Shown piece by piece: positions 27,475-43,543 of a stretch of 64,000 nt of DNA. The stretch spans positions 30,952 through 94,951 of the IMG/VR virus record IMGVR_UViG_3300037509_000067; one strand, given 5' to 3'. The stretch is from a virus. The notes below the pieces were generated by a model. That model made no database searches, was not told the DNA's origin, and saw nothing but the letters and a program-made list of their open reading frames with translations. Positions within the stretch are counted from its first letter, which is position 1. Each line of letters opens with the position of its first letter. The position numbers and the translations under genes are program-made.

Positions 27475-28203
27475 ATGCAAACTGACTCGCCCCCAATAGA
27501 TAAGCCACGCCCTTGGACGCAGCAGGAGTGTCGTGATCGCTACGTCCGTGGCACGAAGATCAGTTTGAAAGAGCTAGCAGTAGAGTCAGGGAATTCTTAT
27601 AAAACCATTAACAACTGGTCTCGGTTTGACGAGCCGAGGTGGTCTATCCAACGGAAAACCTTTGAGGCTGAGGTGAGGTCGAAGAGTGATAACAAGATAC
27701 TTGAGAAGACCAGTGATCTCACGTCTGATTTAGCCGTTGAACACCTTAATAGTTACCAGTCTGCACGGAAGGTTGCAGACGCCTACTTCCAGTGGCAGAA
27801 CCAGAGGATAGAGGAAGTCAAGGGCGTTCCAGAGCGACTAGAAGCCGAATTGAAATCAATCCGAGCCAGCAACATTAATTTTTGGCTTCTCTCCTTAGAA
27901 CGAGCAATCAACGGAGAACGGTTGGCGGCTGGTCTGGAGTGGGAGAATGTTCCCAAAGCGATCGCCTTTCTACAGAAGCTTGGTTATGTTATTACTGACC
28001 CTTCCCTCCCGCCTGCAACCGACGCCGAAGCAGAGCTTGAAGCTACGCCCAAAGGCTTCACCGACGAACAGGCAGGAGATATCAGAGCTAGAATCCTCGG
28101 TATTCCGCAAGGGACCACCAGTTCTACTCCCCTATCAGGCGAGGTGGATATCTGGCACAAAGAGGATTCAGATAGCCGAGAAGTCGCGCCGAGTCGGGAT
28201 TAG
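27475..28203 (+). CDS. Terminase small subunit-like protein
   Basis: N-terminal HTH (ISLKELAVESGNSYKTINNW); GFTDEQAGDIRARILGI resembles the end of Mu gp27-like proteins; precedes TerL. Confidence 0.7.
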   Translation: MQTDSPPIDKPRPWTQQECRDRYVRGTKISLKELAVESGNSYKTINNWSRFDEPRWSIQRKTFEAEVRSKSDNKILEKTSDLTSDLAVEHLNSYQSARKVADAYFQWQNQRIEEVKGVPERLEAELKSIRASNINFWLLSLERAINGERLAAGLEWENVPKAIAFLQKLGYVITDPSLPPATDAEAELEATPKGFTDEQAGDIRARILGIPQGTTSSTPLSGEVDIWHKEDSDSREVAPSRD

Positions 28204-29440
28204 TTGGGCTGATGCTGCGTTGTCTGCGCTCGACGCTTCTTGTATTAACGGCTGTGATACAAGCTATGTTGGTTACAATCACCAAATGGCAGAGCAATAC
28301 ATCACTGATGTAGCGTTCTGGGCTAAAGCTTATCAGATGATTGCCTCAACTATTGAGACAACAGTGTTGGAGGACGAAGGGAAAGATATTCTTGTCTATC
28401 GGGTCAAGTTTGCTACGGGATTCAAGGTGACAGCGCTCTCCTCTCGACCTTCTAACCTGCGATCGCGCAAAGGTAAGTTAGTCTTGGATGAGGCTGCGTT
28501 CCATGACGACTTAGGGGAACTCTTGAAGGCGGCTAATGCAATCGTGATGTGGGGTGGCTCTCGCCCTGGATTAGTGCGAATTATCTCAACTCATAATGGC
28601 GTTAACAACCGTTACAATCAGCTGTGCGAGGATGTTCGTTCTGGCAAACTGGACTACGACTTGCATCAAGTAACGTTATCTGATGCGATCGCCGACGGAC
28701 TCTTCAAGCGGATCTGCCTGATTAATGGGGAAGAATGGACGCTTGAGAAAGAATTCGCTTGGTACACTCAGCTCTACAAGGACTATGGTATCGGCGCTGA
28801 TGAAGAGCTAGGCTGCATCCCGCTTGACGTGAAGGGTGGTGGCATTGTCTTCAATCGCACCTGGTTTGAGATTGTCGATACCCACCCTCCCGTTCTCACG
28901 GCTCAAGTGCGTTTTTGGGATATGGCGTCAACTGCCCGCGAGTTCAATGCCGATGCTTTTTACACGGCGGGGCTGCATCTTGGTCGGGTTGGCAATGATT
29001 ACTACATTCTTCATCTATTGGCTGAGCAAGTTGGTCCAACAGACGGTGATGATTTGATTGTTGCAACAGCAAGCCAAGACGGTCGAAGGGTGCCTGTGCG
29101 TTGGGAATTAGAAGGTGGTTCTGCTGGGTTGAAGGTGGAGGCTAACTTGCGATCGCGTCTTCAAGGATTCGACGCCAGGGGAGTGAAGCCACTGGGCGAT
29201 AAATTGACCCGTGCCAAGCCCGTGGCAGGTGAAGCGAAGCGGGGTAATATTAAGTTGCTACGTGGTGCCTGGAATCAGATGTTTTTAGACGCTGTCCACG
29301 GGTTTGATGGGACTAGTCAGATACTGGTTAACGACGTGACAGACGCACTTTCAGGGGCTTATGGGGAAATTAGCAAGCCGGTGCTGGAGCCTGACTTTGG
29401 CACAATGGGAGATATTCAGTCCGTAACTAGTAGTTGGTAA
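27947..29440 (+). CDS. terL: Terminase large subunit (true start uncertain)
   Basis: LLPYQ, KSRRVG Walker A, LVLDEAAFH Walker B, RFWD nuclease motif. Confidence 0.92.
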   Translation: MFPKRSPFYRSLVMLLLTLPSRLQPTPKQSLKLRPKASPTNRQEISELESSVFRKGPPVLLPYQARWISGTKRIQIAEKSRRVGISWADAALSALDASCINGCDTSYVGYNHQMAEQYITDVAFWAKAYQMIASTIETTVLEDEGKDILVYRVKFATGFKVTALSSRPSNLRSRKGKLVLDEAAFHDDLGELLKAANAIVMWGGSRPGLVRIISTHNGVNNRYNQLCEDVRSGKLDYDLHQVTLSDAIADGLFKRICLINGEEWTLEKEFAWYTQLYKDYGIGADEELGCIPLDVKGGGIVFNRTWFEIVDTHPPVLTAQVRFWDMASTAREFNADAFYTAGLHLGRVGNDYYILHLLAEQVGPTDGDDLIVATASQDGRRVPVRWELEGGSAGLKVEANLRSRLQGFDARGVKPLGDKLTRAKPVAGEAKRGNIKLLRGAWNQMFLDAVHGFDGTSQILVNDVTDALSGAYGEISKPVLEPDFGTMGDIQSVTSSW

Positions 29441-30496: not shown

Positions 30497-31783
30497 ATGC
30501 GATCGCCCTTTCCCACCCCTGGACGAAATAAAAAACTAGAGAATATTTGGCAATCTCTCTCTGGCTTTGTTCGCTCTTTGCTGCCTGGACAGCAGCGATC
30601 GCTCGTTATTAATCCCAACTACGAATTTGTTGGCGATGCTACCTCGATTAGTCGCCAGTACGATTTAGAAATTGAAGAGTATCCGGTTCGTGACCCCATT
30701 CGAGCCACGATGTTGATAGAAATGCTGGAGTATTGCCCGGAAGTGGCAACCAGTATTGATATTCTTCGTAAGAGCTGCCTGTTGTCTGACGACGGCGATG
30801 ATTTTGGATTTACTGTCGCCGAAACGTTAAACGATAAGTCGCCTGTTGACCCCCAGGTTTACAAAATCCTGATGAACTTAATTGAAACCATTTTGTATGG
30901 ACAGACCCTTGAGCCAGCAGTAGATCGGATGCTTGGCGCTGGGGACTGTTTTGCTGTCCTCGGCACGGATCGATCGGTGTCTCGGCTCACCAAGTTTCTC
31001 CCCCTGCCTACTTGGGAGATCTTTCGAGTTGAAGACAATAAAGGGGAGCTTCTGGGATTTCAGCAACGGCGAAGCTTAGCAGATGCGAATCCAATTCAGT
31101 TTCACCCAATTAACCTTGTTCACTGGCGGTATCGGCGCAAGAACTTATACGGGCGTGCTCTATTTAGGGAGTCAGCGGTTTGCGGGGACTGGGAGCGACT
31201 CAAGGCAGCAACCAATGACTTAGCCAGTGCAGCTAGAAGTATTGGCATTAACCCGACCCTGCACATCATGCCTGCTTGCATGGGTGAGGATTACCGGGAC
31301 AAATACAAACTCCTCTACGAGGAGCGAATGAAAGCAGGAGCCGTAACTGATTTCTATCTGATGAATGGGGCTGATCTCAAGAAACTATCTCAGACCAACC
31401 CTGACTTAAAAGCCTTAATTGATACAGTCCAACTGTGGCGTAGCCGAATTGTCATGAAAGCCCAAATCCCCCCTTGGATGTTCGGCTTAGGAACTGAGGG
31501 AGCTAGAGAAATTGCAGGGCAACCAGCTCTATTCTTTGCTCGTCATGTTAACGATTTGCGAACAGCCTTTTCGACCGGACTTCGACATATTTTTAATCTG
31601 GAGCTAGCCTTGCACGGCTTCAGACCTGAGGAATGGCGTTATAGGATTATCTATCCTAAAATTTATGTAGATCCGTTGGAACGCCAGGATGACCCTGTAG
31701 AGGCAGGTGAGGCTAATACTTCAGGAATTGAAGATTTAGACTTTGTAAAAATTAATAGTAATGGCAATGGTTCACACCATTGA
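30497..31783 (+). CDS. Portal protein
   Basis: Follows TerL; 428 aa; HWRYRR..LYGRAL and IPPWMFG motifs. Confidence 0.8.
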   Translation: MRSPFPTPGRNKKLENIWQSLSGFVRSLLPGQQRSLVINPNYEFVGDATSISRQYDLEIEEYPVRDPIRATMLIEMLEYCPEVATSIDILRKSCLLSDDGDDFGFTVAETLNDKSPVDPQVYKILMNLIETILYGQTLEPAVDRMLGAGDCFAVLGTDRSVSRLTKFLPLPTWEIFRVEDNKGELLGFQQRRSLADANPIQFHPINLVHWRYRRKNLYGRALFRESAVCGDWERLKAATNDLASAARSIGINPTLHIMPACMGEDYRDKYKLLYEERMKAGAVTDFYLMNGADLKKLSQTNPDLKALIDTVQLWRSRIVMKAQIPPWMFGLGTEGAREIAGQPALFFARHVNDLRTAFSTGLRHIFNLELALHGFRPEEWRYRIIYPKIYVDPLERQDDPVEAGEANTSGIEDLDFVKINSNGNGSHH

Positions 31784-31815: not shown

Positions 31816-33210
31816 ATGGCGAGAGAACTCATATTTGAAGAGCCTCAATCAGCGATGCTGGCTTTCTTTTTGTCGGAAGACTTGGCGAATGCGATCGCAC
31901 TTCCAGGTGGGGAACCACCAGAAGATCTACATCTGACCTTGGTATATTTCGGTGAGCAAGTCAGCTTCCCTATAGACCAACTGCAATCCCTCCTGAAGGA
32001 GAAATGCCGAACAATGCCTCCCCTCACTGGTCGAATTGCTGGTATAGGGCGATTCAGCGCAGAAGGGCGATCAGGAGATGAAGATGTGATTTATGCGTCG
32101 TTTGATTCACCAGGTTTGCTAAAGCTAAGGGATGAGCTTCTGGTTTGTGTCCAAGCCGCTGGATTGGAACCAGATACAACTCATGGGTATACCCCGCATG
32201 TCACCTTAGCCTATGTCGATCCCGATCAAGAAGTAGACTTGAATTTACCTTTTGTAGAGGTTGAATTTTCGATTATTACTCTAGCGATTGGAGATAACTA
32301 CTACGATTTTGAATTATTAGAAGAATCTGTTACTAGCACGGATAAGCCTTCTGTCTCAAGAATTGACTGGAGGGTGAATGATAACGTTATCATTCACCCT
32401 CCAAGTACTGTAGACTCAATCAATGAAGCTATAGAAGAGGTAAATTGGCTTACCCCAGCGCAACTAGAGCCACTTCGACCAGAAGAGATTGTAGTTATCA
32501 CCTTTGTTGGGGCTGACAATCTCCTTAACAGAGGACTGGGTAAGTGGGATGTCAACGACTTGCCCAAATTAGCGGCGCTGCTACCGGGGTTGCGCCTAAC
32601 ACTAGACCACGATTGGGATCAGGTGAGTAAGGTACGAGGAGTTATCTTTGAGGCGAGATCGACCTATGAGCCGGTTCCCTCAATAGATCCCGATCATTGG
32701 ACTCGACCGGATCTGACATATAGCAAAGACGGCAGAAATTACGCCGTTTTTACCGCAAAGAAAGACAAATTAGCGCCTATTGCCCGTGCAGGGAATTTTG
32801 AATGGAATCGCAGGATTGTGGCAGAGGAAGGCTATCAGACTTGTGAATTCGATGTCGCATTCCCTGCTAATAGTCCAGCGCTCCAAGGATTAAGATTTGG
32901 TCATCTCTCATCAATTTCACTAGGTGGGTTTAACTACAAAGACCACATCTGCCCTTTGTGCAAAACTTCGTTTTCAAATGAGCGCTGCCCTCATTTTATT
33001 CCTGAAGCTTGGGCGGGAAGGACTCACGAGACCGACGAACAGGTAGCCCCTTACTTTATTCGATCGGGGGTATTCGATCTGACAGAAGCTTCTATTGTTC
33101 TCAATCCGAACCTGCCAGGGGCAGGGGTTAAACAAAGGGGGATGTCTCTAGCTGGTGTTCCGATCTTATCGGGAGCAACTAAACAATATTCTCCCTCAAT
33201 GCCCAACTGA
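31816..33210 (+). CDS. 2H phosphoesterase domain fused to a putative prohead protease
   Basis: H39-L-T41 and H128-V-T130; C-terminal LDHDW, SISLG, ICPLC...CPH. Confidence 0.75.
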   Translation: MARELIFEEPQSAMLAFFLSEDLANAIALPGGEPPEDLHLTLVYFGEQVSFPIDQLQSLLKEKCRTMPPLTGRIAGIGRFSAEGRSGDEDVIYASFDSPGLLKLRDELLVCVQAAGLEPDTTHGYTPHVTLAYVDPDQEVDLNLPFVEVEFSIITLAIGDNYYDFELLEESVTSTDKPSVSRIDWRVNDNVIIHPPSTVDSINEAIEEVNWLTPAQLEPLRPEEIVVITFVGADNLLNRGLGKWDVNDLPKLAALLPGLRLTLDHDWDQVSKVRGVIFEARSTYEPVPSIDPDHWTRPDLTYSKDGRNYAVFTAKKDKLAPIARAGNFEWNRRIVAEEGYQTCEFDVAFPANSPALQGLRFGHLSSISLGGFNYKDHICPLCKTSFSNERCPHFIPEAWAGRTHETDEQVAPYFIRSGVFDLTEASIVLNPNLPGAGVKQRGMSLAGVPILSGATKQYSPSMPN

Positions 33211-33565
33211 TCACCTCGCTCCGGCTCCTCATACCAGTTTTTCGCAACATACTCGATACGTGTGACTCAACCGTCCGGGGGTTCCGTCCTATCTCCCTTG
33301 CAATCTCTGAGTTAGACAAACCCTTGCACAGTAGGGGCAATACCTTTGCTTCAGCTTTGCTGATTGCTGGACTGAACCTCAGCCTCTGTTCAACAGTTTT
33401 GCTTGAATTGAGCCGAGCCAGTAGCGCGTCACTGAGTTCGTGTGTTGGGATGTAGTCCAACAGCATCGCCCATAGCCGCTTCACTTGGGCGATGCTGAGG
33501 TTCTCTGCGTTGTCCAAGATTTCATCAACTAGCCGGTTCAGTTCAGCTTCAAGAATGGTTTTCAT
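33179..33565 (-). CDS. LuxR-type HTH regulator without receiver domain
   Basis: KGLSNSEIAREIGRNPRTVESHVSSMLRK. Confidence 0.88.
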   Translation of the reverse strand: MKTILEAELNRLVDEILDNAENLSIAQVKRLWAMLLDYIPTHELSDALLARLNSSKTVEQRLRFSPAISKAEAKVLPLLCKGLSNSEIAREIGRNPRTVESHVSSMLRKTGMRSRSEVISWALRENIV

Positions 33566-33578
33566 TCTGATGGGTTGG

Positions 33579-34130
33579 CTATCTGTTAGTAATTACAGGT
33601 GCGATCGCTCTCTTCTTCCTCAGCTCAGGCATCCAGTGAGGGTGTTCGTAATTCTCCGTCAGCCACTGGTAAGCGTTGTAGTTCCACTCAGCGTCGGCTA
33701 GCGCATTGTGTTCGGTTGTCGATTGGTCTGGTAGTTTTACCCCACCCAAGTCATCGATCCACTGTTTTAGGTCATATGTCACCCAGGGGAGAACATCGGG
33801 CATCCCTACCATTGAACCAAAGCACTGAGCCAGCCTGACATGATCGTAGTCAGCATAGTAAGCGACAAGCTCAACTTTTTCGTTGGTAATTGACTGGACA
33901 AATTCGAGAATGTGATCGCCTAGCTCATGTTCCCTCACCCAAATGGGCTTAGTCGGCACCTCTATGTAAGGCAGTACATTCTGTTTGATCCACTCCGGGG
34001 CGGTAGCTTGGTCATAGTCGCTATTGGCTAAGTAGAGGGATACTCCAGGGCGTAAAAACATACCTAGGGTGATTGGCTTGATAATCTTGCCGTCTTCCTC
34101 GAATTCCCAGTCGTAGAAGATTTTTACCAT
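33579..34130 (-). CDS. DEDDh 3'-5' exoribonuclease (Rv2179c / RNase AS-like)
   Basis: FYDWEFEEDG, YADYDHV, HNALADA. Confidence 0.85.
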   Translation of the reverse strand: MVKIFYDWEFEEDGKIIKPITLGMFLRPGVSLYLANSDYDQATAPEWIKQNVLPYIEVPTKPIWVREHELGDHILEFVQSITNEKVELVAYYADYDHVRLAQCFGSMVGMPDVLPWVTYDLKQWIDDLGGVKLPDQSTTEHNALADAEWNYNAYQWLTENYEHPHWMPELRKKRAIAPVITNR

Positions 34131-34212
34131 TTGACTTAAGTTTTTAACTTTCTAGTTTTTGCTATTTAACAGCGATAATACTATTAAACACTCACGGCTA
34201 GGGAGCGATCAC

Positions 34213-34443
34213 ATGGCTGACCCAGATGAGCTTGAAAGAATAATAATCACTTATTGCCCAAGTTGCGGCGGCGATGAGATTGCTGTATTAAACGGACAAT
34301 ACATCTGTACAACTCCAGGATGTGGAGCCAAGTGGGACTTGCTTTTAGGATTAGGTAAGTGCGTCCCTTGGACGGAAGAGATGTCAGCGCGTGCCAAAAC
34401 CCTAACAGAAGGCGTTGAAATCGATAATACTAAACAAGGTTGA
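34213..34443 (+). CDS. Small Zn-ribbon protein
   Basis: CPSCG...CTTPGC. Confidence 0.6.
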   Translation: MADPDELERIIITYCPSCGGDEIAVLNGQYICTTPGCGAKWDLLLGLGKCVPWTEEMSARAKTLTEGVEIDNTKQG

Positions 34444-34658
34444 AAATAATGGCTCAAACCGGTGGACGGATTCATTCAAGCGATGCTTCTCGGATTGGAA
34501 ATGTTACGGGTATTAAGCCGGAGGACTGGCAAGGTGAGCCAAACTTGACGCCACCATGCACATCAGGCGATAGCTCTTGCAACACAAGTCGATCAGAGAA
34601 GCTTAAAGACTTGGAATTGCCAGAGTTCACGCGTACAACATATCGTCGTTACGATTAA
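34440..34658 (+). CDS. Hypothetical small protein
   Basis: Coupled to the previous ORF. Confidence 0.4.
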   Translation: MKIMAQTGGRIHSSDASRIGNVTGIKPEDWQGEPNLTPPCTSGDSSCNTSRSEKLKDLELPEFTRTTYRRYD

Positions 34659-34860
34659 AAAACGGTTATGACCTTATTGTGCCAATAGTGTAAGGGTGGA
34701 GTTAATGCGCGATTTTCTTCGTTTTCTTTTAGAGAGGCTAGGGTTCTCCAACGGTGTGATTGCCAAGGGAAACTATGTAATACCAGATTTAGAAGAGATT
34801 AAGCAACGATCAGCTACCAAAAAAGACGCAAAATAGAGTACTACGGTGGTGCAATTTAGC

Positions 34861-34891
34861 AAACAGCCCACGCATCAAGCGTGGGCTGTTT
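34861..34891. terminator. Intrinsic terminator downstream of the fibre gene
   Basis: AAACAGCCCACGC / GCGTGGGCTGTTT. Confidence 0.65.
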
Positions 34892-34920
34892 GCCGTAGTC
34901 AGACTTGAACTGCGGGTGGC

Positions 34921-37011
34921 TTAGGCTTGCGTTAGGGAAAGGTTATCGACAAGTAGCGTTTGAGATCCACTAGGCGGCATGTATGCAAAAACCTTAGCCG
35001 AAGTATTTGTCGAACCTGTCGTAAATGTAACCGTAGCTAGCACATAATTTGAGTGAGGATCGGGGAAATATACATACTTGTCGGTGCCTCCATACTCGTA
35101 TACTCCTATTGAGCAGGGGGCTTCAGAGGAGGTTCCTTGACACTTCACCCAAGCGCTAAAAACGTAATTAGTATTAGGTTGCAAATTTACAACCATTTGT
35201 TCAAACCAACCGTCTGGAGGACCAGAAATTTTACCGGAATTGCTTCCCGCAAAAACCTCTTCGGGAACGCTTGTAATAGAGGCGTTGCCAACAATAGCCC
35301 AATTGTTGCCGCCATCTTCAAGCCCTGGATTTAACAGTAAATTAGGGTTACTCGTAGGAGTAGGAGTAGGAGTAGGAGTAGGAGTAGGAGTAGGAGTAGG
35401 AGTGGGAGTGGGAGTAGGAGTAGGAGTGGCATTGAAGTTAAGCGGACTGTGGGTAGTTACACAAACTTTCCAAGCCGTATTTGCGTTGCCAGCAAGTGGT
35501 ACGTTGCCCTTGATCGCAAAGTTTAAAGTAGTGCCGTTACTCAGTCGGCGAGGCTTGAGAATTTGTGCTCCATAACCATCTGGATCATAAATTCCCGCAA
35601 GTTGAGCGCCTTGCTGCATTCCTGTGATAGTGAAAATTGTTTCGTCTAACGCTGAGTTGTAGGCAACTTGCACCCTATTATCGCCAGTAATTAAAGCAAT
35701 TTCTGGGGAATTGACAGCAGCAAATTGTTGAATTTTTCCATCAATTGCAGTATCTCGAAGTGCTGGTGTGTCTTTGGTGCCAAGCTGAGTATAGAGGTCT
35801 TGAATTTGACCATCTTGGGTGCTGTTCAAAGTCTGAACTTGGACAATTGTAGAGTCAATTCCGTCTACCCGTGCTTCAATTTGGGTTTGACGAGATCCTG
35901 CTACCGAAATTTGCCCAGTATGATCATCGACAATCGCTTGTAGCCCGACAATGCGACTGCTCTGCTGAGTATCAACTTGTTGAATTGCCGCAATATCGGC
36001 CGTATGACCGTCAATTGCACTCTGCTGCTGAGTATCAACTTGCCGAATTGCGGCGATGTCAGCCGTATGACCGTCAATTGCACTCTGTTGCTGAGTATTG
36101 ACTTGCTGAATTGCTGCAATATCAGCTGTGTGTGTGTCAATTGCGTTCTGTTGTTGAGTATCAACTTGCCGAATTGCGGTGATGTCAGTCGTGTGACTAT
36201 TAATTGCATTCTGCTGGCGTTGATTTTCTGCGATCAGCCCTGCATCAGTATCGTGCAGTCCTTGTAATTCAGCTTCCGTCCCCGGAGAAAAATCAAGCCT
36301 TTCTCCGTCCTGAACAAGTCGTGCCTCATTAGTATCTACAGAAATTGTCCGCCCGACAATGTGTACCGCCCCTTGATCAGCGTAAGGCGTAAAGCGTATC
36401 CAAGGCTCAAATTCAATATCCGTTACCGCGTCGTTAGCGTCTCGGACAGGTTCGGTGTTAACCCTAAAAACCTCATTGGTCTGGTCTACAAAAACTTCAG
36501 TCCCGACCGGAAAATCAAACCCAGGAATCTTTTGACCAGTAGCGCGGTCATAAATGCCGTTTGTGGCTGTATTACTACCATTGACCAGAATCCAGCCACC
36601 ATAAATTGGTGGAGGCGTAGGATAATCAGGGATAGGAACATTGGCTACATCCGCAGGGGTTAGTGCAAGCCCCGCCACTGTATAGTCTCTGGTAACTCCC
36701 CGCTCCCAATTTTCAAATTGTGTTCTAAGGTCACCAATCTCGCCCAGATAATTATCTTGAATTTGACTGAGGTCAGCCCCCACCACCATCTGCTCTTGGT
36801 GGATTGTGCCATCGCGAATCGCGGGTGGTCCAAAAACAAGACGATTTAAGTCTGAACGTAAATCGTGATGAACCTCTAGAGCGTTGCTAATTTTTACAGG
36901 AGAAGCGTTGATCCGATCAAGTGGCGGCATAAGGCAGGGGTTATTTTTTTGATTAAGGGTATTGATTTTTTGGGCGCTGCCGCGTAGAAAACTTGCTCGA
37001 ATTCGCTGCAC
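34921..37011 (-). CDS. Fibre-like virion protein: anchor domain, coiled coil, PT linker and carbohydrate-binding module
   Basis: ILVNGSNTATNGIY; 21-aa repeats; (PT)12; NLLLNPGLEDG...YVFSAWVK...VDNLSL CBM4/9-like end. Confidence 0.75.
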   Translation of the reverse strand: MQRIRASFLRGSAQKINTLNQKNNPCLMPPLDRINASPVKISNALEVHHDLRSDLNRLVFGPPAIRDGTIHQEQMVVGADLSQIQDNYLGEIGDLRTQFENWERGVTRDYTVAGLALTPADVANVPIPDYPTPPPIYGGWILVNGSNTATNGIYDRATGQKIPGFDFPVGTEVFVDQTNEVFRVNTEPVRDANDAVTDIEFEPWIRFTPYADQGAVHIVGRTISVDTNEARLVQDGERLDFSPGTEAELQGLHDTDAGLIAENQRQQNAINSHTTDITAIRQVDTQQQNAIDTHTADIAAIQQVNTQQQSAIDGHTADIAAIRQVDTQQQSAIDGHTADIAAIQQVDTQQSSRIVGLQAIVDDHTGQISVAGSRQTQIEARVDGIDSTIVQVQTLNSTQDGQIQDLYTQLGTKDTPALRDTAIDGKIQQFAAVNSPEIALITGDNRVQVAYNSALDETIFTITGMQQGAQLAGIYDPDGYGAQILKPRRLSNGTTLNFAIKGNVPLAGNANTAWKVCVTTHSPLNFNATPTPTPTPTPTPTPTPTPTPTPTPTSNPNLLLNPGLEDGGNNWAIVGNASITSVPEEVFAGSNSGKISGPPDGWFEQMVVNLQPNTNYVFSAWVKCQGTSSEAPCSIGVYEYGGTDKYVYFPDPHSNYVLATVTFTTGSTNTSAKVFAYMPPSGSQTLLVDNLSLTQA
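35354..35425. repeat. Hexamer tandem repeat (GTAGGA/GTGGGA)x12 encoding the Pro-Thr linker
   Basis: Read directly from sequence. Confidence 0.95.
35962..36213. repeat. 63-bp coding tandem repeat, about 4 units
   Basis: Encodes HT.DI.AI.QV.TQQQ.AID heptad repeats. Confidence 0.9.
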
Positions 37012-37065
37012 ATTACGCCCTAAACATGCTCTTGCAATTCCTACAAGATCTTAAGTAATTGATCG

Positions 37066-37308
37066 TTGACTGTAAAAGAGGTGTCACAAGCTGTGAACGT
37101 AAAACCAGATCAAGTACGTCAACGGATTATTGAATTACGAGAGCAAGCCGGATTATCTCAAGCTAAAGCCGCCAAGCGATTAAATTACTCTCGATCATGC
37201 TTGAGCCAGAAAGAAAGCGGCGATCGCAGAATTTACCTAGAAGATCTATTAAATATGGCGCAAATTTACAATCAACATGTTAGTGAATTTTTCAAAGTCT
37301 CCCAGTAG
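37066..37308 (+). CDS. XRE-family HTH protein
   Basis: RIIELREQAGLSQAKAAKRLNYSRSCLSQKESG. Confidence 0.85.
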   Translation: MTVKEVSQAVNVKPDQVRQRIIELREQAGLSQAKAAKRLNYSRSCLSQKESGDRRIYLEDLLNMAQIYNQHVSEFFKVSQ

Positions 37309-37651
37309 TAACCGGCGAAATAATATCAAGCTCCCATTGTGAAGAATAAGCAATATCACCTTTTAAAAAGACTTTAGCAACTGTTCCCTCTAGGTTATGT
37401 TGCAATTTTGCGCCAAATCCTTCTTGCCCTTCTTTCCAAAACTTTTTGGGGCGGGAATCAGTTGGCAAGCCCGTTACCGTGAAACAGGTTTCTTCTAGCT
37501 CGCTATCGTAAAACCGTTGAACCTGGGTGTCTTCCTCCACTAATTTAATTTGCCAGAGATAGCAAAGGACAGCTGTTCGGCTATAGCCTGTGATTGTATC
37601 TGGCTTGCGGAGGGTTATTGGTTGCTGATAGTTAAAATTTAAGGGGGGCAT
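37292..37651 (-). CDS. Stand-alone paralog of an internal domain of the 696-aa fibre
   Basis: D.+VQ..Y+S.L+ET.FT+TG and G+GA...GT....KG alignment. Confidence 0.65.
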   Translation of the reverse strand: MPPLNFNYQQPITLRKPDTITGYSRTAVLCYLWQIKLVEEDTQVQRFYDSELEETCFTVTGLPTDSRPKKFWKEGQEGFGAKLQHNLEGTVAKVFLKGDIAYSSQWELDIISPVTTGRL

Positions 37652-38115
37652 CAGTCTTGGGTTGGCGTTGTATCCAACAAAAGTGCAGAATCGTCCTCAA
37701 CGTCTTTTAGTGTTGCGACAAAAAAGGCTCCGCCTCGCGGATCGTAGGGGGTAGCAGCCAGCAACTTGTTGCCAGTCGCTTCCCATGCAGTAGTTGCCCC
37801 TTGAGGGAGTGGCTTTCCATTAACTGTCCCTTCCTCCGAGCCAATATTGCTAAAAACTACCCCTTTATACCCTGAGGGGAGAACCCCTGCCGTAGTTGCA
37901 ATAAAATTGTCAGTTTTTTGAAATCCCCCTGGATTGAGTTTGTCGGCTATTGCCGTTGCCAATTGTTCGTAATCTATCCCACTGCGATCGCCTTCTATCT
38001 CCTGGAAGACTTCAAATATCGCCGTTGCTAACCGCCTATCCTCATATCCATATCGCTTGCCATAATGCTGAAATTGCTTTGACATATTTGTAGGCTCTAT
38101 AGATTGCAGAATCAC
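37651..38115 (-). CDS. Hypothetical protein, possibly virion-associated
   Basis: 154 aa, coupled within the inverted cassette. Confidence 0.65.
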   Translation of the reverse strand: MILQSIEPTNMSKQFQHYGKRYGYEDRRLATAIFEVFQEIEGDRSGIDYEQLATAIADKLNPGGFQKTDNFIATTAGVLPSGYKGVVFSNIGSEEGTVNGKPLPQGATTAWEATGNKLLAATPYDPRGGAFFVATLKDVEDDSALLLDTTPTQD

Positions 38116-38393
38116 ACACGCTTGGATTTTGGGAGCAAAACCCCAAGCGATTCAGGAATGAATTCCTCTATAGGAACCCCAAAGATGATCGACATGGCAA
38201 CAACTTCTAGGAATCGCGCCGGACGCTTCCCTAATTCAATTTTGGAAAGAACCTTGCTGCCAAGGATTGAGGGGGCTAACGAGGATTGCTTGAATTCAGC
38301 CGCCTCCCTAATTTGTTTTATCCTGTCTCCCACCGCGTTTGTGCTGCGGATTTCCTGTAGCCGTCCCTCGATAATATGAACGTTCTGCCTCAT
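38112..38393 (-). CDS. XRE-family HTH protein
   Basis: VGDRIKQIREAAEFKQ...LSKIELGKR. Confidence 0.8.
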   Translation of the reverse strand: MRQNVHIIEGRLQEIRSTNAVGDRIKQIREAAEFKQSSLAPSILGSKVLSKIELGKRPARFLEVVAMSIIFGVPIEEFIPESLGVLLPKSKRV

Positions 38394-38538: not shown

Positions 38539-40407
38539 ATGGGTAGAAAGACTACTGATGGCTCCAATGGCGTCGGAGAAAGGGATGCCATCCAGAGGGT
38601 TAATGGGCATAAGAGAAAAGGATTTATTAAGGGAAACGACGCGAAAACCAAAGAAGAAAATAGCGGAATCCCTGCAACACCCCCAGCAGAAATTCCATCA
38701 CAAATAAGTGGGAATGATTCGGGATCTAGTCCCGAATCCAGTTCTGAAGCTGCCCCTGAAGCTGGTTCCACTATTAGTCAAGAAGACTTGCCAGATGGTC
38801 AATTCATCTATAAAAAAAGCGAAATAGACGCAGTTATTTCGGCTGGTATTAGGGCCGGTCAGCAAGGGTATGAGCGCAAACTTGCTGATGCTGAACAGAA
38901 ATTACAGGACGCAGAAGATAGGCGAAATAAAGAATTAAAAGACGCTCAGGAAGAGAAAGAACGCTTAGAGAAGAAACTTGCCGCCGAGCAAAAAGGGCGT
39001 GAATCACTTGCGAGAACGTTTACGGATTTTGGCTTTGCCCTGCCTGGGACTGAGGATACAAATACCAGTAGTTTTATCGCACCCCAATCTACTCGCGGTG
39101 GGATTTCTGCAAGAGATGCTCTTAGAGAATATAAGAGTAGATTGGATGGCGCGCTGAAAGAATCCAGGTCGGTAATGGGTCGCTCTGGACAGCAATTTGC
39201 CCAAAAAGATAACACACTTCTAGACCAATTCTTGAAGGCAAATCGCCAAGCTTTAAGAAGCGCAATGGACTCCGTGGCGCGAGATGCTGGAATTTTCCAA
39301 GGGCGATATGGAGCTTACAACAAAGACGCGCCCACGACATTCGAGAATTTCCCTGTAGTAATCCGAGAGTATTTAAGCCAAGTCGTGCGTCTCGAACATG
39401 CTGCCTCTTTTGTTCTGTGGCAATTTGCCAATAGAAACATTCGAGTCGGTGTTCCCCCAAATCAAACCACGGACATCCCTAGAGTTAAGCATATAACCAC
39501 TGGAACTACTTCCAGTGATTGGAGGCTGACGCCGGGAGTGCCGATCGACACCACCCAGCAGCAATCTCTGCAAGGCGATAATATCTCCCTTAGAATCCAC
39601 GAATACGGTATGGGCAATACGGTTAAGCCAGTTGCCTTAGCAGATATCGTGACTCAGACTAATATCCTGGACTTGGAAAGGCTATTACAGGATCGAATTA
39701 GCTACAATTACCACACTTTTGAAGAGGTAAAAAATCTCGAACTTTTGCTCTCTTCAACTAGGGTTGTTTATCCGGCTAATGGGGGAATTGTTGAAGATCC
39801 GGCTGGAGTGACCCCAGGAAGTGGAGGGCAACTAAGCTTAAGCTTCTTGGGGCATTTGCGCGCCCTGATGTCCAATGTTCCCCCCCTAGATAATGGATGT
39901 CTAATTTTTGTCGGCAACCCATACCATATCTCCCAAATAGAAGACGATATCGAAGGTCGGACTAGATACGTAGATAAAACCTCTATCGAAGACCTAGAAA
40001 ACATGCTTGCCCGTAAAACAAGGAACGACTACTCCGGCAGGATATCGGGATATAAGGGCAAATTCAGGGGCTTTGAGGTCTTCGAGGATACTTTTTTAAG
40101 TAATGGGATTGTGGGGACACCTGGGGTTCAGCTAGAGACTCTTGGAGGCGTTCCTACAATCACTCGTGCCTCTTTTGCGATGGGCGCTGATGCAATTGGC
40201 TGGGGTACGTCTCTCCCAATGGAACTGCGAACAGAAATGCAAAATTATGAGCGAATAAAAAGCATTATTTGGAAGTCCCACGAAGAAGCCACGGGGCTAG
40301 ATATCGATCCAAACCGAATTTTACTCCCTTGGGAAATTGAGAGACCACCCGGCGCGGAAGAGCAGCTGAGAGTTTTCCAGATTCGATCGTCTATGTCTTT
40401 GGTTTAA
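38539..40407 (+). CDS. Scaffold plus major capsid protein in one ORF
   Basis: Acidic/coiled-coil N-terminal ~270 aa, then a capsid-like region; head position before neck genes. Confidence 0.72.
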   Translation: MGRKTTDGSNGVGERDAIQRVNGHKRKGFIKGNDAKTKEENSGIPATPPAEIPSQISGNDSGSSPESSSEAAPEAGSTISQEDLPDGQFIYKKSEIDAVISAGIRAGQQGYERKLADAEQKLQDAEDRRNKELKDAQEEKERLEKKLAAEQKGRESLARTFTDFGFALPGTEDTNTSSFIAPQSTRGGISARDALREYKSRLDGALKESRSVMGRSGQQFAQKDNTLLDQFLKANRQALRSAMDSVARDAGIFQGRYGAYNKDAPTTFENFPVVIREYLSQVVRLEHAASFVLWQFANRNIRVGVPPNQTTDIPRVKHITTGTTSSDWRLTPGVPIDTTQQQSLQGDNISLRIHEYGMGNTVKPVALADIVTQTNILDLERLLQDRISYNYHTFEEVKNLELLLSSTRVVYPANGGIVEDPAGVTPGSGGQLSLSFLGHLRALMSNVPPLDNGCLIFVGNPYHISQIEDDIEGRTRYVDKTSIEDLENMLARKTRNDYSGRISGYKGKFRGFEVFEDTFLSNGIVGTPGVQLETLGGVPTITRASFAMGADAIGWGTSLPMELRTEMQNYERIKSIIWKSHEEATGLDIDPNRILLPWEIERPPGAEEQLRVFQIRSSMSLV

Positions 40408-41115: not shown

Positions 41116-41910
41116 ATGCCTGGAAGTTTTAGCGATTACGCAGAAAAGAAAATTCTTGATCATATTTTTGGTGGCGCTCAATTCGCAGTGCCATCACTGT
41201 ATTTAGGTTACTTTATTACCGACGCATCAGAAGAGGGACCCGGAACTGAGCCGGTAGGAAGCGGCTATGAACGGATTGCGGTAGATCCAAGTTACTGGCT
41301 AGCCAGTACTACTCAGATGGTTCAGAATACCAAGGACATTATCTGCCAGCGCACAACAGGCTATCACGGTGATGTAGTAGGGATTGGACTTTTTGATTCT
41401 TCTGTAGGTGGGAACTTCTTGTGTTATTTCCCGGCAGAAAGTTCGGTTCTCGTAGAGGGGCGCGACTCGTTAGTAATTCTCAACGGGGGATTGGTGCATC
41501 AATTTAGCCCTGGGGGATTTAGCAATTACCTAAAAAACGCTGTCCTCAATCACCTCTACAAAGGTATACCCTTGCCGATTTTTCCTACGTTGTTTATCGG
41601 GTACATGTCCACCGCTCCCAGTGATGTAGCACCCGGTGCTGAGCCATCTGGGGGAGGGTATATTCGGCAAGCGATCGCTAATAATAGCGTGAATTTTTCG
41701 GCTACTGGAGGGGGAATCAAAAAAACAGCAACAACAGTACAATTTCCGATTGCGTCAGCCCCTCAAGGGGAAGCTGCTCATCTAGGATTTTGGAGTGCCG
41801 TATCAGGTGGTCAGTTTTTGTCCTATGGAGCGCTCAACCCGTCACGGAGTATTGATATTAGCGATCAATTAATCTTTCTTGCTGGTGATATCAAGGTCAC
41901 CTTGGACTGA
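41116..41910 (+). CDS. Virion structural protein with an internally duplicated domain
   Basis: FSDYAEKKILDHIF..GSGYERIAV and FSNYLKNAVLNHLY..GGGYIRQAI. Confidence 0.75.
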   Translation: MPGSFSDYAEKKILDHIFGGAQFAVPSLYLGYFITDASEEGPGTEPVGSGYERIAVDPSYWLASTTQMVQNTKDIICQRTTGYHGDVVGIGLFDSSVGGNFLCYFPAESSVLVEGRDSLVILNGGLVHQFSPGGFSNYLKNAVLNHLYKGIPLPIFPTLFIGYMSTAPSDVAPGAEPSGGGYIRQAIANNSVNFSATGGGIKKTATTVQFPIASAPQGEAAHLGFWSAVSGGQFLSYGALNPSRSIDISDQLIFLAGDIKVTLD

Positions 41911-43195: not shown

Positions 43196-43543
43196 ATGGA
43201 TAAAGTTATTCTAATTATTGAGGATAATGATTCTATCTCTAGTAATATCAAAGAAATATGCGAGTTAGAGCATTTTGTCTGTCTGCAAGCGCCATCCGCA
43301 GAAACGGGAATTAAGTTAGCCAGTGAAGCTGATTTGATTCTGTGTGACATTCATTTGAATGGAATTTCTGGGTTTGATGCGTATCAAATTCTTCAGTCAA
43401 ATCCGCTTGTTGCATCTAAGCCTTTCTACTTCCTTACAGCTTTAGCTGATTCTGTGACTATAAATAAAATTAATCGCTTAGGGGTTAAATATCTTCTCAA
43501 GCCTTTTAAAATACAGGAATTAATAGACATCATCAGTCAATAG
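43196..43543 (+). CDS. Single-domain response regulator (receiver only)
   Basis: ILIIEDN, LILCD (phospho-Asp), FLTA and LLKPF all intact. Confidence 0.9.
   Translation: MDKVILIIEDNDSISSNIKEICELEHFVCLQAPSAETGIKLASEADLILCDIHLNGISGFDAYQILQSNPLVASKPFYFLTALADSVTINKINRLGVKYLLKPFKIQELIDIISQ

What the first reader, a model, noticed from the sequence alone, without database searches (positions are those of the whole stretch)
31816..33210. Acb1-like 2H phosphoesterase fused to the putative prohead protease
Seen: two intact HxT motifs (H39, H128) in a ~170-aa N-terminal domain, joined to a protease-like domain (LDHDW, SISLG, CPLC...CPH) directly after the portal. Established: phage Acb1 is a 2H enzyme that hydrolyses CBASS cyclic oligonucleotides, and prohead proteases have been reported as CBASS triggers. 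Inference: the phage ties the antidote to the trigger so both are made at the same time and place. Alternative: a LigT/ThpR-like RNA 2',3'-cyclic phosphodiesterase. 2H domains in head modules have some precedent, so novelty needs checking.
Basis: partly seen in the sequence, partly recalled or inferred. Interest (0 to 1): 0.8.

Follow-up and report, generated by a model that had tools for sequence, protein, structure and literature searches.

The report
Phosphoesterase fused to phage head protease
One late gene of an uncultured phage, probably of cyanobacteria, joins an intact LigT-type 2H phosphoesterase to the protease that matures the virus head; the layout probably loads the enzyme into the capsid, was predicted in 2017, recurs in many phages and is still untested.

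Summary
ORF 31816-33210 (+) encodes 464 aa. Residues ~10-168 are a 2H phosphoesterase with both HxT motifs (H39, H128). Residues ~200-446 have the herpesvirus-assemblin / T4 gp21 prohead-protease fold, with conserved H265, S368 and E424 and a CxxC...CxH knuckle. It follows terminase and portal, and it is the only protease candidate in the 96-kb virus record.

The 2H domain is closest to bacterial LigT/ThpR cyclic phosphodiesterases (Z 15-17.7). Acb1 scores Z 9.9, and Pfam Acb1 gives 15.8 bits against a cut-off of 27. The same 2H clade is also fused to two other prohead-protease families and three portal families. What the partners share is a place inside the procapsid, not CBASS-trigger status.

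Best reading: the protease carries the 2H enzyme into the head as cargo, probably for counter-defence. The substrate is unknown.

This fits the "polyvalent protein" class of Iyer et al. 2017. Cultured actinophages (ValentiniPuff gp7, Edmundo gp18) have the same layout. This scan has noted such fusions 39 times on other DNA. New here is the partner: a Pfam-less, zinc-knuckle protease family in which the 2H fusion is rare. Verdict: new member of a known, untested kind.

The parts
31816..33210 (+). Whole gene: 464-aa fusion of a 2H phosphoesterase and a prohead protease (P0001)
   Evidence: ORF list and translation. Full-length homologues at 92, 52 and 49% identity.
31843..32319 (+). LigT/ThpR-type 2H phosphoesterase domain (residues ~10-168)
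   Evidence: Pfam PF13563 at E 1.8e-12 and PF02834 at 25.8 bits, over its cut-off. Model pLDDT 90.6. 5h7e Z 17.7, 1iuh Z 16.7, E. coli LigT Z 15.6.
31930..31938 (+). First catalytic motif, H39-L-T41
   Evidence: H39 is invariant and T41 at least 90% conserved in 30 head-associated 2H domains.
32197..32205 (+). Second catalytic motif, H128-V-T130
   Evidence: H128 is invariant and T130 at least 90% conserved.
32320..32415 (+). Variable, low-confidence linker between the domains (residues 169-200); candidate site of self-cleavage (inferred)
   Evidence: Its length and sequence differ among P0001-P0004. pLDDT is below 50 at the start of the C-terminal model.
32416..33153 (+). Prohead (head-maturation) serine protease domain with the assemblin / T4 gp21 fold (residues ~201-446)
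   Evidence: VIA-align: T4 gp21 5jbl Z 9.9 (128 aligned, rmsd 3.4), VZV protease Z 9.6, HCMV protease Z 7.6. 92 BFVD matches at E<=1e-3, many named prohead protease, COG3740 or XkdF. Atlas links to Peptidase_S77, S78 and S80.
32608..32610 (+). H265 (in LDHDW), candidate catalytic histidine
   Evidence: At least 90% conserved in 60 family members and invariant in two subsets.
32665..32805 (+). Lineage-specific insertion in the protease domain (residues ~284-330)
   Evidence: Present only in P0001, P0002 and P0003 and absent from the rest of the family. pLDDT is 53-74.
32917..32919 (+). S368 (in SISLGGF), candidate catalytic serine
   Evidence: Invariant in the family. The motif aligns with the XkdF-type 'FSIQG' serine motif, but weakly: hhalign E 0.021, probability 2%.
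32950..32994 (+). Zinc-knuckle-like insert, C379-x2-C382-x8-C391-x-H393
   Evidence: All four residues are at least 90% conserved in 60 members. Only C2H2 zinc fingers match this stretch in PDB and Pfam. Metal binding is inferred.
33085..33087 (+). E424, an invariant acidic residue (possible third active-site residue)
   Evidence: Invariant. Its role is inferred.
33154..33207 (+). Unconserved, disordered C-terminal tail; overlaps the 3' end of the convergent LuxR-type gene (33179..33565, -)
   Evidence: pLDDT is 42-44. It is not conserved in P0003 or P0004. The overlap is seen.
27947..29440 (+). Terminase large subunit (context)
   Evidence: phrog_979 at E 1.7e-33; Terminase_6C.
30497..31783 (+). 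Portal protein (context), immediately upstream
   Evidence: phrog_30703 at E 7e-6 and phrog_12 at E 7e-4. It is 49% identical to the gene that sits two genes upstream of the standalone protease in L004.
38539..40407 (+). Major capsid protein with a ~250-aa N-terminal scaffold/delta-like extension: the likely protease substrate (context)
   Evidence: Atlas structure matches to HK97-fold capsid families over residues ~250-622. The best match is a protease-scaffold-capsid fusion cluster. It is 31% identical to the capsid-position gene of L004.

Best explanation
The gene encodes one polypeptide with two enzymes. The C-terminal domain is the phage's head-maturation serine protease. It has the assemblin / T4 gp21 / HK97 gp4 fold and belongs to a subfamily with no Pfam model and a CCCH knuckle after the serine strand. 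Like other prohead proteases it is built into the procapsid, where it removes the long N-terminal scaffold-like part of the capsid protein.

The N-terminal domain is a catalytically intact LigT/ThpR-type 2H phosphoesterase that rides on the protease as cargo. It is therefore made late, at head stoichiometry, and placed inside the capsid. It is probably cut free at the variable linker. It would then act either in the next cell after ejection with the DNA, or late in the producing cell.

Its most likely job is counter-defence by hydrolysing a phosphodiester that host immunity depends on. That could be a cyclic or 2'-5'-linked nucleotide signal, or RNA ends bearing 2',3'-cyclic phosphate.

Shown: the two folds, the conserved catalytic residues, the head-module position, and the recurrence of the fusion. 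Inferred: packaging, self-cleavage, ejection and substrate.
For: The 2H fold and motifs are established.

The protease fold is established. H265, S368 and E424 are conserved in that order. The H-to-S spacing is about 58 residues once the lineage-specific insert is removed.

No S78, XkdF or ClpP protease was found elsewhere in the 96-kb record. The capsid protein carries a ~250-aa N-terminal extension.

A related cyanobacterial-MAG element keeps the portal (49% identity), a protease without 2H (40%) and the capsid (31%). The 2H is therefore an add-on to a core head gene.

The same 2H clade sits N-terminal to XkdF-type and Mu-I-type proteases and C-terminal to SPP1-, Mu- and Phage_portal_3-type portals. 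It also occurs in cultured phages such as ValentiniPuff gp7 and Edmundo gp18.

The 2H tree needs several independent joinings.

Other members of this protease family carry different N-terminal add-ons, including Hva1_TUDOR and DUF3140. Protease-fold proteins fused to ligase, methyltransferase or Dps domains also exist.

Iyer et al. 2017 (PMC5512222) describe 2H fused to MuF and portal, and assemblin-like peptidases always at the C-termini of polyvalent proteins predicted to be packaged and injected.

No RNA ligase or RtcB is present in the record.
Against: There are no virion proteomics, cleavage data or enzymology for this or any 2H-protease fusion.

In well-studied phages, prohead-protease fragments usually leave the capsid or are degraded, so retention of the 2H domain is an assumption.

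A portal-fused 2H would not be ejected unless it is cleaved off.

The catalytic geometry of H265 and S368 could not be inspected, because the tools return no coordinates. No Pfam protease model matches the domain by sequence.

The record is about 89% complete, so genes that were not found may lie outside it.
Confidence: 0.55

Rival explanations
1. The 2H domain is an Acb1-type cyclic-oligonucleotide nuclease. It is fused to the prohead protease because that protease is what activates CBASS by cleaving the CD-NTase activation loop. The antidote is therefore made in the same molecule, at the same time and place, as the trigger.
For: Acb1 is a 2H enzyme (PMC9117128). LigT-like phosphodiesterases have been recruited repeatedly to cleave cGAMP (PMC11410667). 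Prohead proteases cleave and activate CD-NTases (PMC12991175). Three different protease families carry this 2H clade. Acb1 is still a significant structural match, at Z 9.9.
Against: Pfam Acb1 is below its cut-off (15.8 against 27 bits). LigT/ThpR enzymes match far better, at Z 15-17.7 against 9.9. The same 2H clade is also fused to three portal families, for which no trigger role is known to me. Only 2 of 148 representatives of this protease family carry a 2H. Acb1 activity is reported to appear early in infection, whereas this gene is late (PMC11722364). The host and its defences are unknown.
Confidence: 0.12
2. An RNA-repair enzyme. It would be a ThpR/LigT-like RNA 2',3'-cyclic phosphodiesterase that heals tRNA or mRNA ends cut by host anticodon nucleases or other metal-independent RNases, acting in the cytoplasm. 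The fusion would only ensure late co-expression.
For: The closest sequence and structure relatives are bacterial ThpR/LigT and the D. radiodurans CPDase.
Against: No RNA ligase (PF09414) or RtcB was found in the 96-kb record. Iyer et al. report that head-associated 2H domains never co-occur with RNA ligases. Co-expression alone does not explain repeated fusion to capsid-interior proteins.
Confidence: 0.13
3. An injected RNase. The 2H domain would work like Usb1, as a 3'-5' exoribonuclease or endonuclease. It would be delivered from the capsid to damage host RNAs or guide RNAs at the start of infection.
For: Human Usb1 is a strong structural match (Z 14.5). Iyer et al. propose this option by analogy with PBECR RNase domains fused to MuF and portal.
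Against: LigT-type enzymes match better than Usb1. No RNA-binding module is evident. Nothing here distinguishes this option from the others.
Confidence: 0.1
4. A fusion without special function. Either a neighbouring 2H gene merged with the protease gene by loss of a stop codon, or the 2H domain serves only as a structural, scaffold-like spacer.
For: In this protease family the fusion is rare and appears to have arisen once.
Against: Both catalytic histidines are invariant in 30 fused and solo relatives. The same clade has fused independently to at least five other head-protein families.
Confidence: 0.07

Closest known systems
Phage 'polyvalent' and head-fusion proteins carrying 2H phosphoesterase domains (Iyer, Burroughs, Anand, de Souza, Aravind 2017, J Bacteriol, PMC5512222)
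   Same: A 2H domain is fused to a capsid-interior head protein. An assemblin-like peptidase sits at the C-terminus, as that paper states is always the case. There is no linked RNA ligase. The role is predicted, not tested: an RNase or a degrader of nucleotide signals, packaged into the virion.
   Different: This is a minimal two-domain version. The paper describes 2H fused to MuF and portal. Here the partner is the protease itself, and it belongs to a subfamily with no Pfam model.
2H + XkdF-type (Peptidase_S78_2) 'capsid maturation protease' genes of cultured actinophages, e.g. Microbacterium phage ValentiniPuff gp7 and Arthrobacter phage Edmundo gp18
   Same: The order is the same (2H N-terminal, protease C-terminal). 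The place is the same (after portal and MuF). The 2H clade is the same, at 29-34% identity.
   Different: The protease family differs: XkdF-type rather than the zinc-knuckle family. hhalign aligns only the serine motif. The hosts are Actinobacteria.
E. coli ThpR/LigT, T. thermophilus TT0787 (1iuh) and D. radiodurans CPDase (5h7e): RNA 2',3'-cyclic phosphodiesterases
   Same: These are the best sequence and fold matches to the N-terminal domain: E 1.6e-4 by phmmer and Z 15.6-17.7 over 150-163 residues. The two HxT motifs are shared.
   Different: They are free-standing cellular enzymes and are not fused to a virion protein. Whether the substrate is the same was not tested.
Acb1 anti-CBASS nuclease (phage T4 gene 57B; Erwinia phage FBB1, PDB 7T26/7T27)
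   Same: It shares the 2H fold and the two catalytic histidines. It is a phage-encoded phosphodiesterase.
   Different: The Pfam model scores below its cut-off. Z is only 9.9. Acb1 is a compact enzyme of about 150 aa with a C-terminal lid that stands alone, and its activity is reported to appear early in infection (PMC9117128; PMC11722364). Here the domain is fused and sits in the late head module.
T4 gp21 and herpesvirus assemblin (prohead/capsid maturation serine proteases)
   Same: They share the fold: Z 9.9 for 5jbl and 9.6 for 1vzv. The conserved residues come in the same order, His then Ser. The position in the head module is the same.
   Different: Identity is 14-15%. No Pfam S77, S78 or S80 model matches. 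This domain has an inserted CCCH knuckle, a 45-aa lineage-specific loop and an N-terminal enzyme cargo.

Membership tests
2H phosphoesterase superfamily | Two H-x-T/S motifs on the two lobes of the fold | tested here: met
   H39-L-T41 and H128-V-T130 are present. Both histidines are invariant in 30 relatives.
2H phosphoesterase superfamily | The 2H fold (two-lobed alpha+beta) | tested here: met
   Model pLDDT 90.6. Z 17.7 to 5h7e over 163 residues, and 66 chains with Z>=8, all 2H enzymes among those listed.
LigT/ThpR-like branch (Pfam 2_5_RNA_ligase2 / LigT_PEase) | Score above the curated Pfam cut-offs | tested here: met
   PF13563 scores 48 bits (cut-off 27). PF02834 scores 25.8 bits (cut-off 23.3).
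LigT/ThpR-like branch (Pfam 2_5_RNA_ligase2 / LigT_PEase) | RNA 2',3'-cyclic phosphodiesterase activity | not testable with these tools
   This needs enzymology.
Acb1 (anti-CBASS nuclease, Pfam PF23474) | Score above the curated Pfam cut-off | tested here: not met
   15.8 bits, E 0.012, against a cut-off of 27.
Acb1 (anti-CBASS nuclease, Pfam PF23474) | Closest structural relatives are Acb1 structures | tested here: not met
   7t26 Z 9.9 and 7t27 Z 9.4 rank about 40th, behind LigT, Usb1, AKAP18, VP3, ns2 and a phage BCSR5 phosphodiesterase.
Acb1 (anti-CBASS nuclease, Pfam PF23474) | C-terminal lid and aromatic base-stacking residues around the cyclic dinucleotide (PMC9117128) | not tested
   No residue-level structural alignment was available.
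Acb1 (anti-CBASS nuclease, Pfam PF23474) | Hydrolysis of 3'3'-cGAMP and related CBASS signals | not testable with these tools
   This needs enzymology.
Prohead (capsid maturation) serine proteases of the assemblin / gp21 / HK97 gp4 fold | The fold | tested here: met
   5jbl Z 9.9, 1vzv Z 9.6 and 8j3s Z 7.6, ahead of unrelated folds at Z 6.2 or less. 92 BFVD hits at E<=1e-3 include named prohead proteases.
Prohead (capsid maturation) serine proteases of the assemblin / gp21 / HK97 gp4 fold | Conserved catalytic His followed by Ser, in an active-site arrangement | tested here: inconclusive
   H265 is at least 90% conserved, S368 is invariant, and the order is right. The serine motif aligns with XkdF's only weakly. 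The three-dimensional geometry could not be inspected.
Prohead (capsid maturation) serine proteases of the assemblin / gp21 / HK97 gp4 fold | Encoded in the head module between the portal and the capsid protein | tested here: met
   The gene lies directly after the portal. The capsid gene is 5.3 kb downstream, after an inverted cassette. L004 has the same order with a standalone protease.
Prohead (capsid maturation) serine proteases of the assemblin / gp21 / HK97 gp4 fold | Sequence membership in Pfam S77, S78, S78_2, S80 or Mu-like_Pro | tested here: not met
   There was no hit for the protein or for 60 family members. It is therefore a separate, unmodelled subfamily. PHROG 16951 ('unknown function') matches in part.
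Head-associated 2H fusions / polyvalent proteins (Iyer et al. 2017) | A 2H domain fused to a virion head protein, with the assemblin-like peptidase at the C-terminus and no linked RNA ligase | tested here: met
   The architecture is shown. No PF09414 or RtcB is in the record.
Head-associated 2H fusions / polyvalent proteins (Iyer et al. 2017) | Packaged into the virion and delivered to the host | not testable with these tools
   This needs virion proteomics.

The most novel reading that the evidence does not exclude
The fused 2H domain is a cyclic-oligonucleotide phosphodiesterase whose physical linkage to the prohead protease matters in itself. The protease cleaves and switches on the host CD-NTase, and the tethered enzyme destroys the signal at its source. 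That would be a trigger-linked antidote, evolved independently on three protease families.
Probability: 0.1. Interest if true: 0.75.

Novelty: new member of a known kind. Interest (0 to 1): 0.35.

Why it matters
Head-associated 2H phosphoesterases occur in hundreds of sequenced phages. The 2H part alone matched 266 cultured-phage records. They were predicted in 2017 to be packaged counter-defence enzymes, but none has been assayed.

Prohead proteases have since been shown to trigger CBASS (2024-2026). That makes the protease-fused versions a timely test case for two questions: is the enzyme a capsid-delivered cargo, a trigger-linked antidote, or both; and what is its substrate?

This example adds a third, previously unmodelled protease family to the list of carriers. 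That strengthens the case that the fusion is selected rather than accidental. The phage itself is uncultured, however, so cultured actinophage analogues are the better experimental entry point.

Tried and rejected
- Sequence searches of the C-terminal domain found no protease family. This covered Pfam, a PDB profile search and PHROGs, alone or as a 60-member family. Only zinc-finger-like matches to the CxxC...CxH stretch appeared.
- Foldseek against PDB gave only weak hits (best E 0.6). Herpesvirus proteases and T4 gp21 did recur among them. The fold call rests on VIA-align and BFVD.
- hhalign of the family against XkdF-type protease domains aligned only the serine motif, at low probability.
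- The search for related loci failed or found nothing in viral contigs.
- The word-index search for free-standing relatives of the 2H domain returned only four proteins.
- A literature search for the phage BCSR5 phosphodiesterase structure (9q2y) gave nothing relevant.
- I looked for a CD-NTase (SMODS) in the record and found none. It is a virus record, so this says nothing about the host.
- I did not try to identify a cleavage motif shared by the linker and the capsid delta domain. The protease's specificity is unknown and any match would be guesswork.
- I considered an internal start that would make a separate protease and found no evidence for one. The linker was not scanned for alternative start codons or a ribosome-binding site.
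Full report
**Observation.** The window holds an intact ORF at 31816..33210 on the + strand, 464 aa. It starts 33 nt after the stop of a portal-like gene, 30497..31783 (phrog_30703 E 7e-6). A large terminase subunit lies upstream at 27947..29440 (phrog_979 E 1.7e-33). The window is part of a 96,178-bp IMG/VR virus record, about 89% complete.

**N-terminal domain.** Residues 37-140 match Pfam 2_5_RNA_ligase2 (E 1.8e-12, 48 bits, cut-off 27). LigT_PEase (25.8 bits, cut-off 23.3) and AKAP7_NLS (29.6 bits, cut-off 24.4) also pass their cut-offs. Pfam Acb1 reaches only 15.8 bits against a cut-off of 27. By sequence, the nearest solved structures are the T. thermophilus '2'-5' RNA ligase' 1iuh (E 1.6e-4) and the D. 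radiodurans cyclic phosphodiesterase 5h7e.

A model built on 30 related domains has pLDDT 90.6. The table gives its alignment to solved structures.

| Structure | Z |
|---|---|
| 5h7e (163 residues aligned) | 17.7 |
| 1iuh | 16.7 |
| E. coli LigT/ThpR | 15.6 |
| Usb1 | 14.5 |
| AKAP18 | 13.1 |
| Rotavirus VP3 phosphodiesterase | 12.8 |
| Phage BCSR5 phosphodiesterase | 11.2 |
| Acb1 | 9.9 |
| Poxvirus cGAMP phosphodiesterase | 9.1 |

Foldseek gives the same order. The domain is therefore a bona fide 2H enzyme with both catalytic histidines, and both are invariant in the 30 relatives. Its nearest kin are LigT/ThpR-type enzymes, not Acb1. Fold proximity does not fix the substrate: LigT-like folds have been recruited several times to cleave cGAMP or 2-5A (PMC11410667).

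**C-terminal domain.** No Pfam, PDB-sequence or named PHROG family matches it. An exhaustive HMMER search of 1.8 billion representatives found 172 relatives. Of the 149 best-scoring representatives other than P0002, 148 match the family profile: 109 are free-standing proteins of about 210-300 aa, 35 have other N-terminal extensions, 2 have long C-terminal extensions and only 2 carry a 2H domain. The other extensions include Hva1_TUDOR and DUF3140.

In a 60-member alignment, N235, S368, E424 and S426 are invariant. H265, C379, C382, C391 and H393 are at least 90% conserved.

The model (pLDDT 81.6, pTM 0.78) aligns best to T4 gp21 (5jbl, Z 9.9, 128 residues, rmsd 3.4), VZV protease (Z 9.6) and HCMV protease (Z 7.6). 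Unrelated folds begin at Z 6.2. Against predicted viral structures it has 92 matches at E<=1e-3, and many are named prohead protease, COG3740 head maturation protease or XkdF. The ESM Atlas links it to Peptidase_S77, S78 and S80 clusters.

The conserved histidine precedes the conserved serine, as in assemblin-type proteases. Once a 45-residue insert found only in this lineage is removed, the spacing is about 58 residues. The CxxC...CxH segment after the serine strand looks like a zinc knuckle. H393 could instead be a third active-site residue, and I could not decide between the two.

No S78, XkdF or ClpP protease is found elsewhere in the record. The 622-aa protein at 38539..40407 has an HK97-type capsid fold preceded by about 250 extra residues, which makes it a natural substrate.

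**Context in relatives.** Three metagenomic proteins share the full architecture (92, 52 and 49% identity). In L003 the gene again follows a portal and ends the + strand block.

A contig of a Synechococcales MAG (L004) carries a homologous portal (49% identity), a free-standing protease of this family (40%) and a homologous capsid protein (31%), in that order. The head module is therefore conserved, and the 2H domain is an accretion on the protease in the window's lineage. This locus is also the only indication found here that the host is a cyanobacterium.

**Recurrence of the fusion.** The nearest relatives of the 2H domain (30-45% identity) are themselves fused to head proteins.
- N-terminal to Peptidase_S78_2 (XkdF) and Mu-like_Pro proteases.
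- C-terminal to SPP1_portal, Phage_portal_3 and Portal_Mu portals.

In cultured phages the 2H part matches 266 records, mostly actinophages. There it lies in genes annotated variously as capsid maturation protease, protease-MuF fusion, portal or 'RNA ligase'. ValentiniPuff gp7 and Edmundo gp18 are 2H + XkdF proteins that sit after portal and MuF.

A tree of the 2H domains groups those fused to the zinc-knuckle protease together (support 93/84), consistent with one fusion event. The Mu-I-fused ones also group together. XkdF- and portal-fused ones are scattered, so the module has joined head proteins several times.

**Literature.** Iyer et al. 2017 (PMC5512222) already described 2H domains fused to MuF and portal. 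They noted that these never associate with RNA ligases, and proposed either an RNase role or degradation of defence nucleotides. They also state that assemblin-like peptidases are always at the C-termini of polyvalent proteins predicted to be packaged and injected.

Acb1 is a 2H nuclease (PMC9117128). Prohead proteases activate CBASS by cleaving a CD-NTase loop (PMC12991175).

This scan has already noted 2H-prohead-protease fusions 39 times in at least 38 other genomes, and follow-ups reached the same reading. I reached it from my own searches before consulting those notes. They are not independent evidence.

**Mechanism.** The partners (three protease families, three portal families and MuF) share a location inside the procapsid. 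They do not share CBASS-trigger status. I therefore favour the following sequence.
1. The protease carries the 2H enzyme into the head.
2. The variable, disordered linker (residues 169-200) is a likely cleavage site.
3. The freed domain is either ejected with the DNA, as T4 internal proteins are (established knowledge; analogy only), or acts late in the producing cell.

Its target is most likely a phosphodiester used by host immunity. The absence of RNA ligase and RtcB lowers the RNA-repair reading. The trigger-linked antidote model remains possible at about one in ten. None of packaging, cleavage or substrate is shown.

It is a new member of a known, computationally predicted and experimentally untested kind. 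What it adds is a third carrier protease family, one that Pfam does not model and that bears a zinc-knuckle-like insert. Interest is moderate to low.

Noticed in passing
window 32416-33153 (and P0028-P0176): The protease domain belongs to a family of at least 170 cluster representatives with no Pfam model. Only PHROG 16951 ('unknown function') matches it, and only in part. The family is marked by an invariant Ser, a conserved His and a CxxC-x8-CxH knuckle. About a quarter of members carry N-terminal add-ons (Hva1_TUDOR, DUF3140 and others unnamed), and two are 840-860 aa with long C-terminal extensions.
   Followed up: partly
window 33179-38393: The head module is interrupted. After the protease come convergent or inverted genes: a LuxR-type HTH, an Rv2179c-like 3'-5' exoribonuclease (PHROG 'RNase H'), a 696-aa protein with a coiled coil, a Pro-Thr linker and a CBM_4_9 domain, and small HTH genes. 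The capsid gene follows only at 38539. In L003 the gene after the 2H-protease is likewise on the opposite strand.
   Followed up: partly
window 33179-33210: The last 32 nt of the protease gene overlap the 3' end of the convergent LuxR-type gene. The overlapped protease tail is disordered and not conserved.
   Followed up: no
window 38539-40407: The 622-aa capsid protein has a ~250-aa N-terminal coiled-coil or scaffold-like extension. Its best Atlas structure match is a cluster of 803-aa protease-scaffold-capsid fusion proteins (Peptidase_S78 in 95% of members).
   Followed up: partly
window 43196-43543: A free-standing response-regulator receiver domain (Pfam Response_reg, E 9.6e-16) is encoded among the structural genes.
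   Followed up: no
window 41116-41910: A 264-aa protein matches Pfam Gp80 (podophage GP4 fiber I protein, E 4.8e-51) and phrog_240 'head protein'.
   Followed up: no
Atlas and BFVD hits of the protease model: Prohead-protease-fold domains also occur fused to Dps/ferritin, DNA/RNA ligase and Dam-type methyltransferase domains in other viral proteins. This suggests a general 'protease as cargo carrier' theme.
   Followed up: no
L001, L002 and other hits: GenBank annotation of the same actinophage gene family is inconsistent. Near-identical genes are named 'RNA ligase', 'aldolase class I', 'capsid maturation protease', 'portal protein' or 'hypothetical protein'.
   Followed up: no
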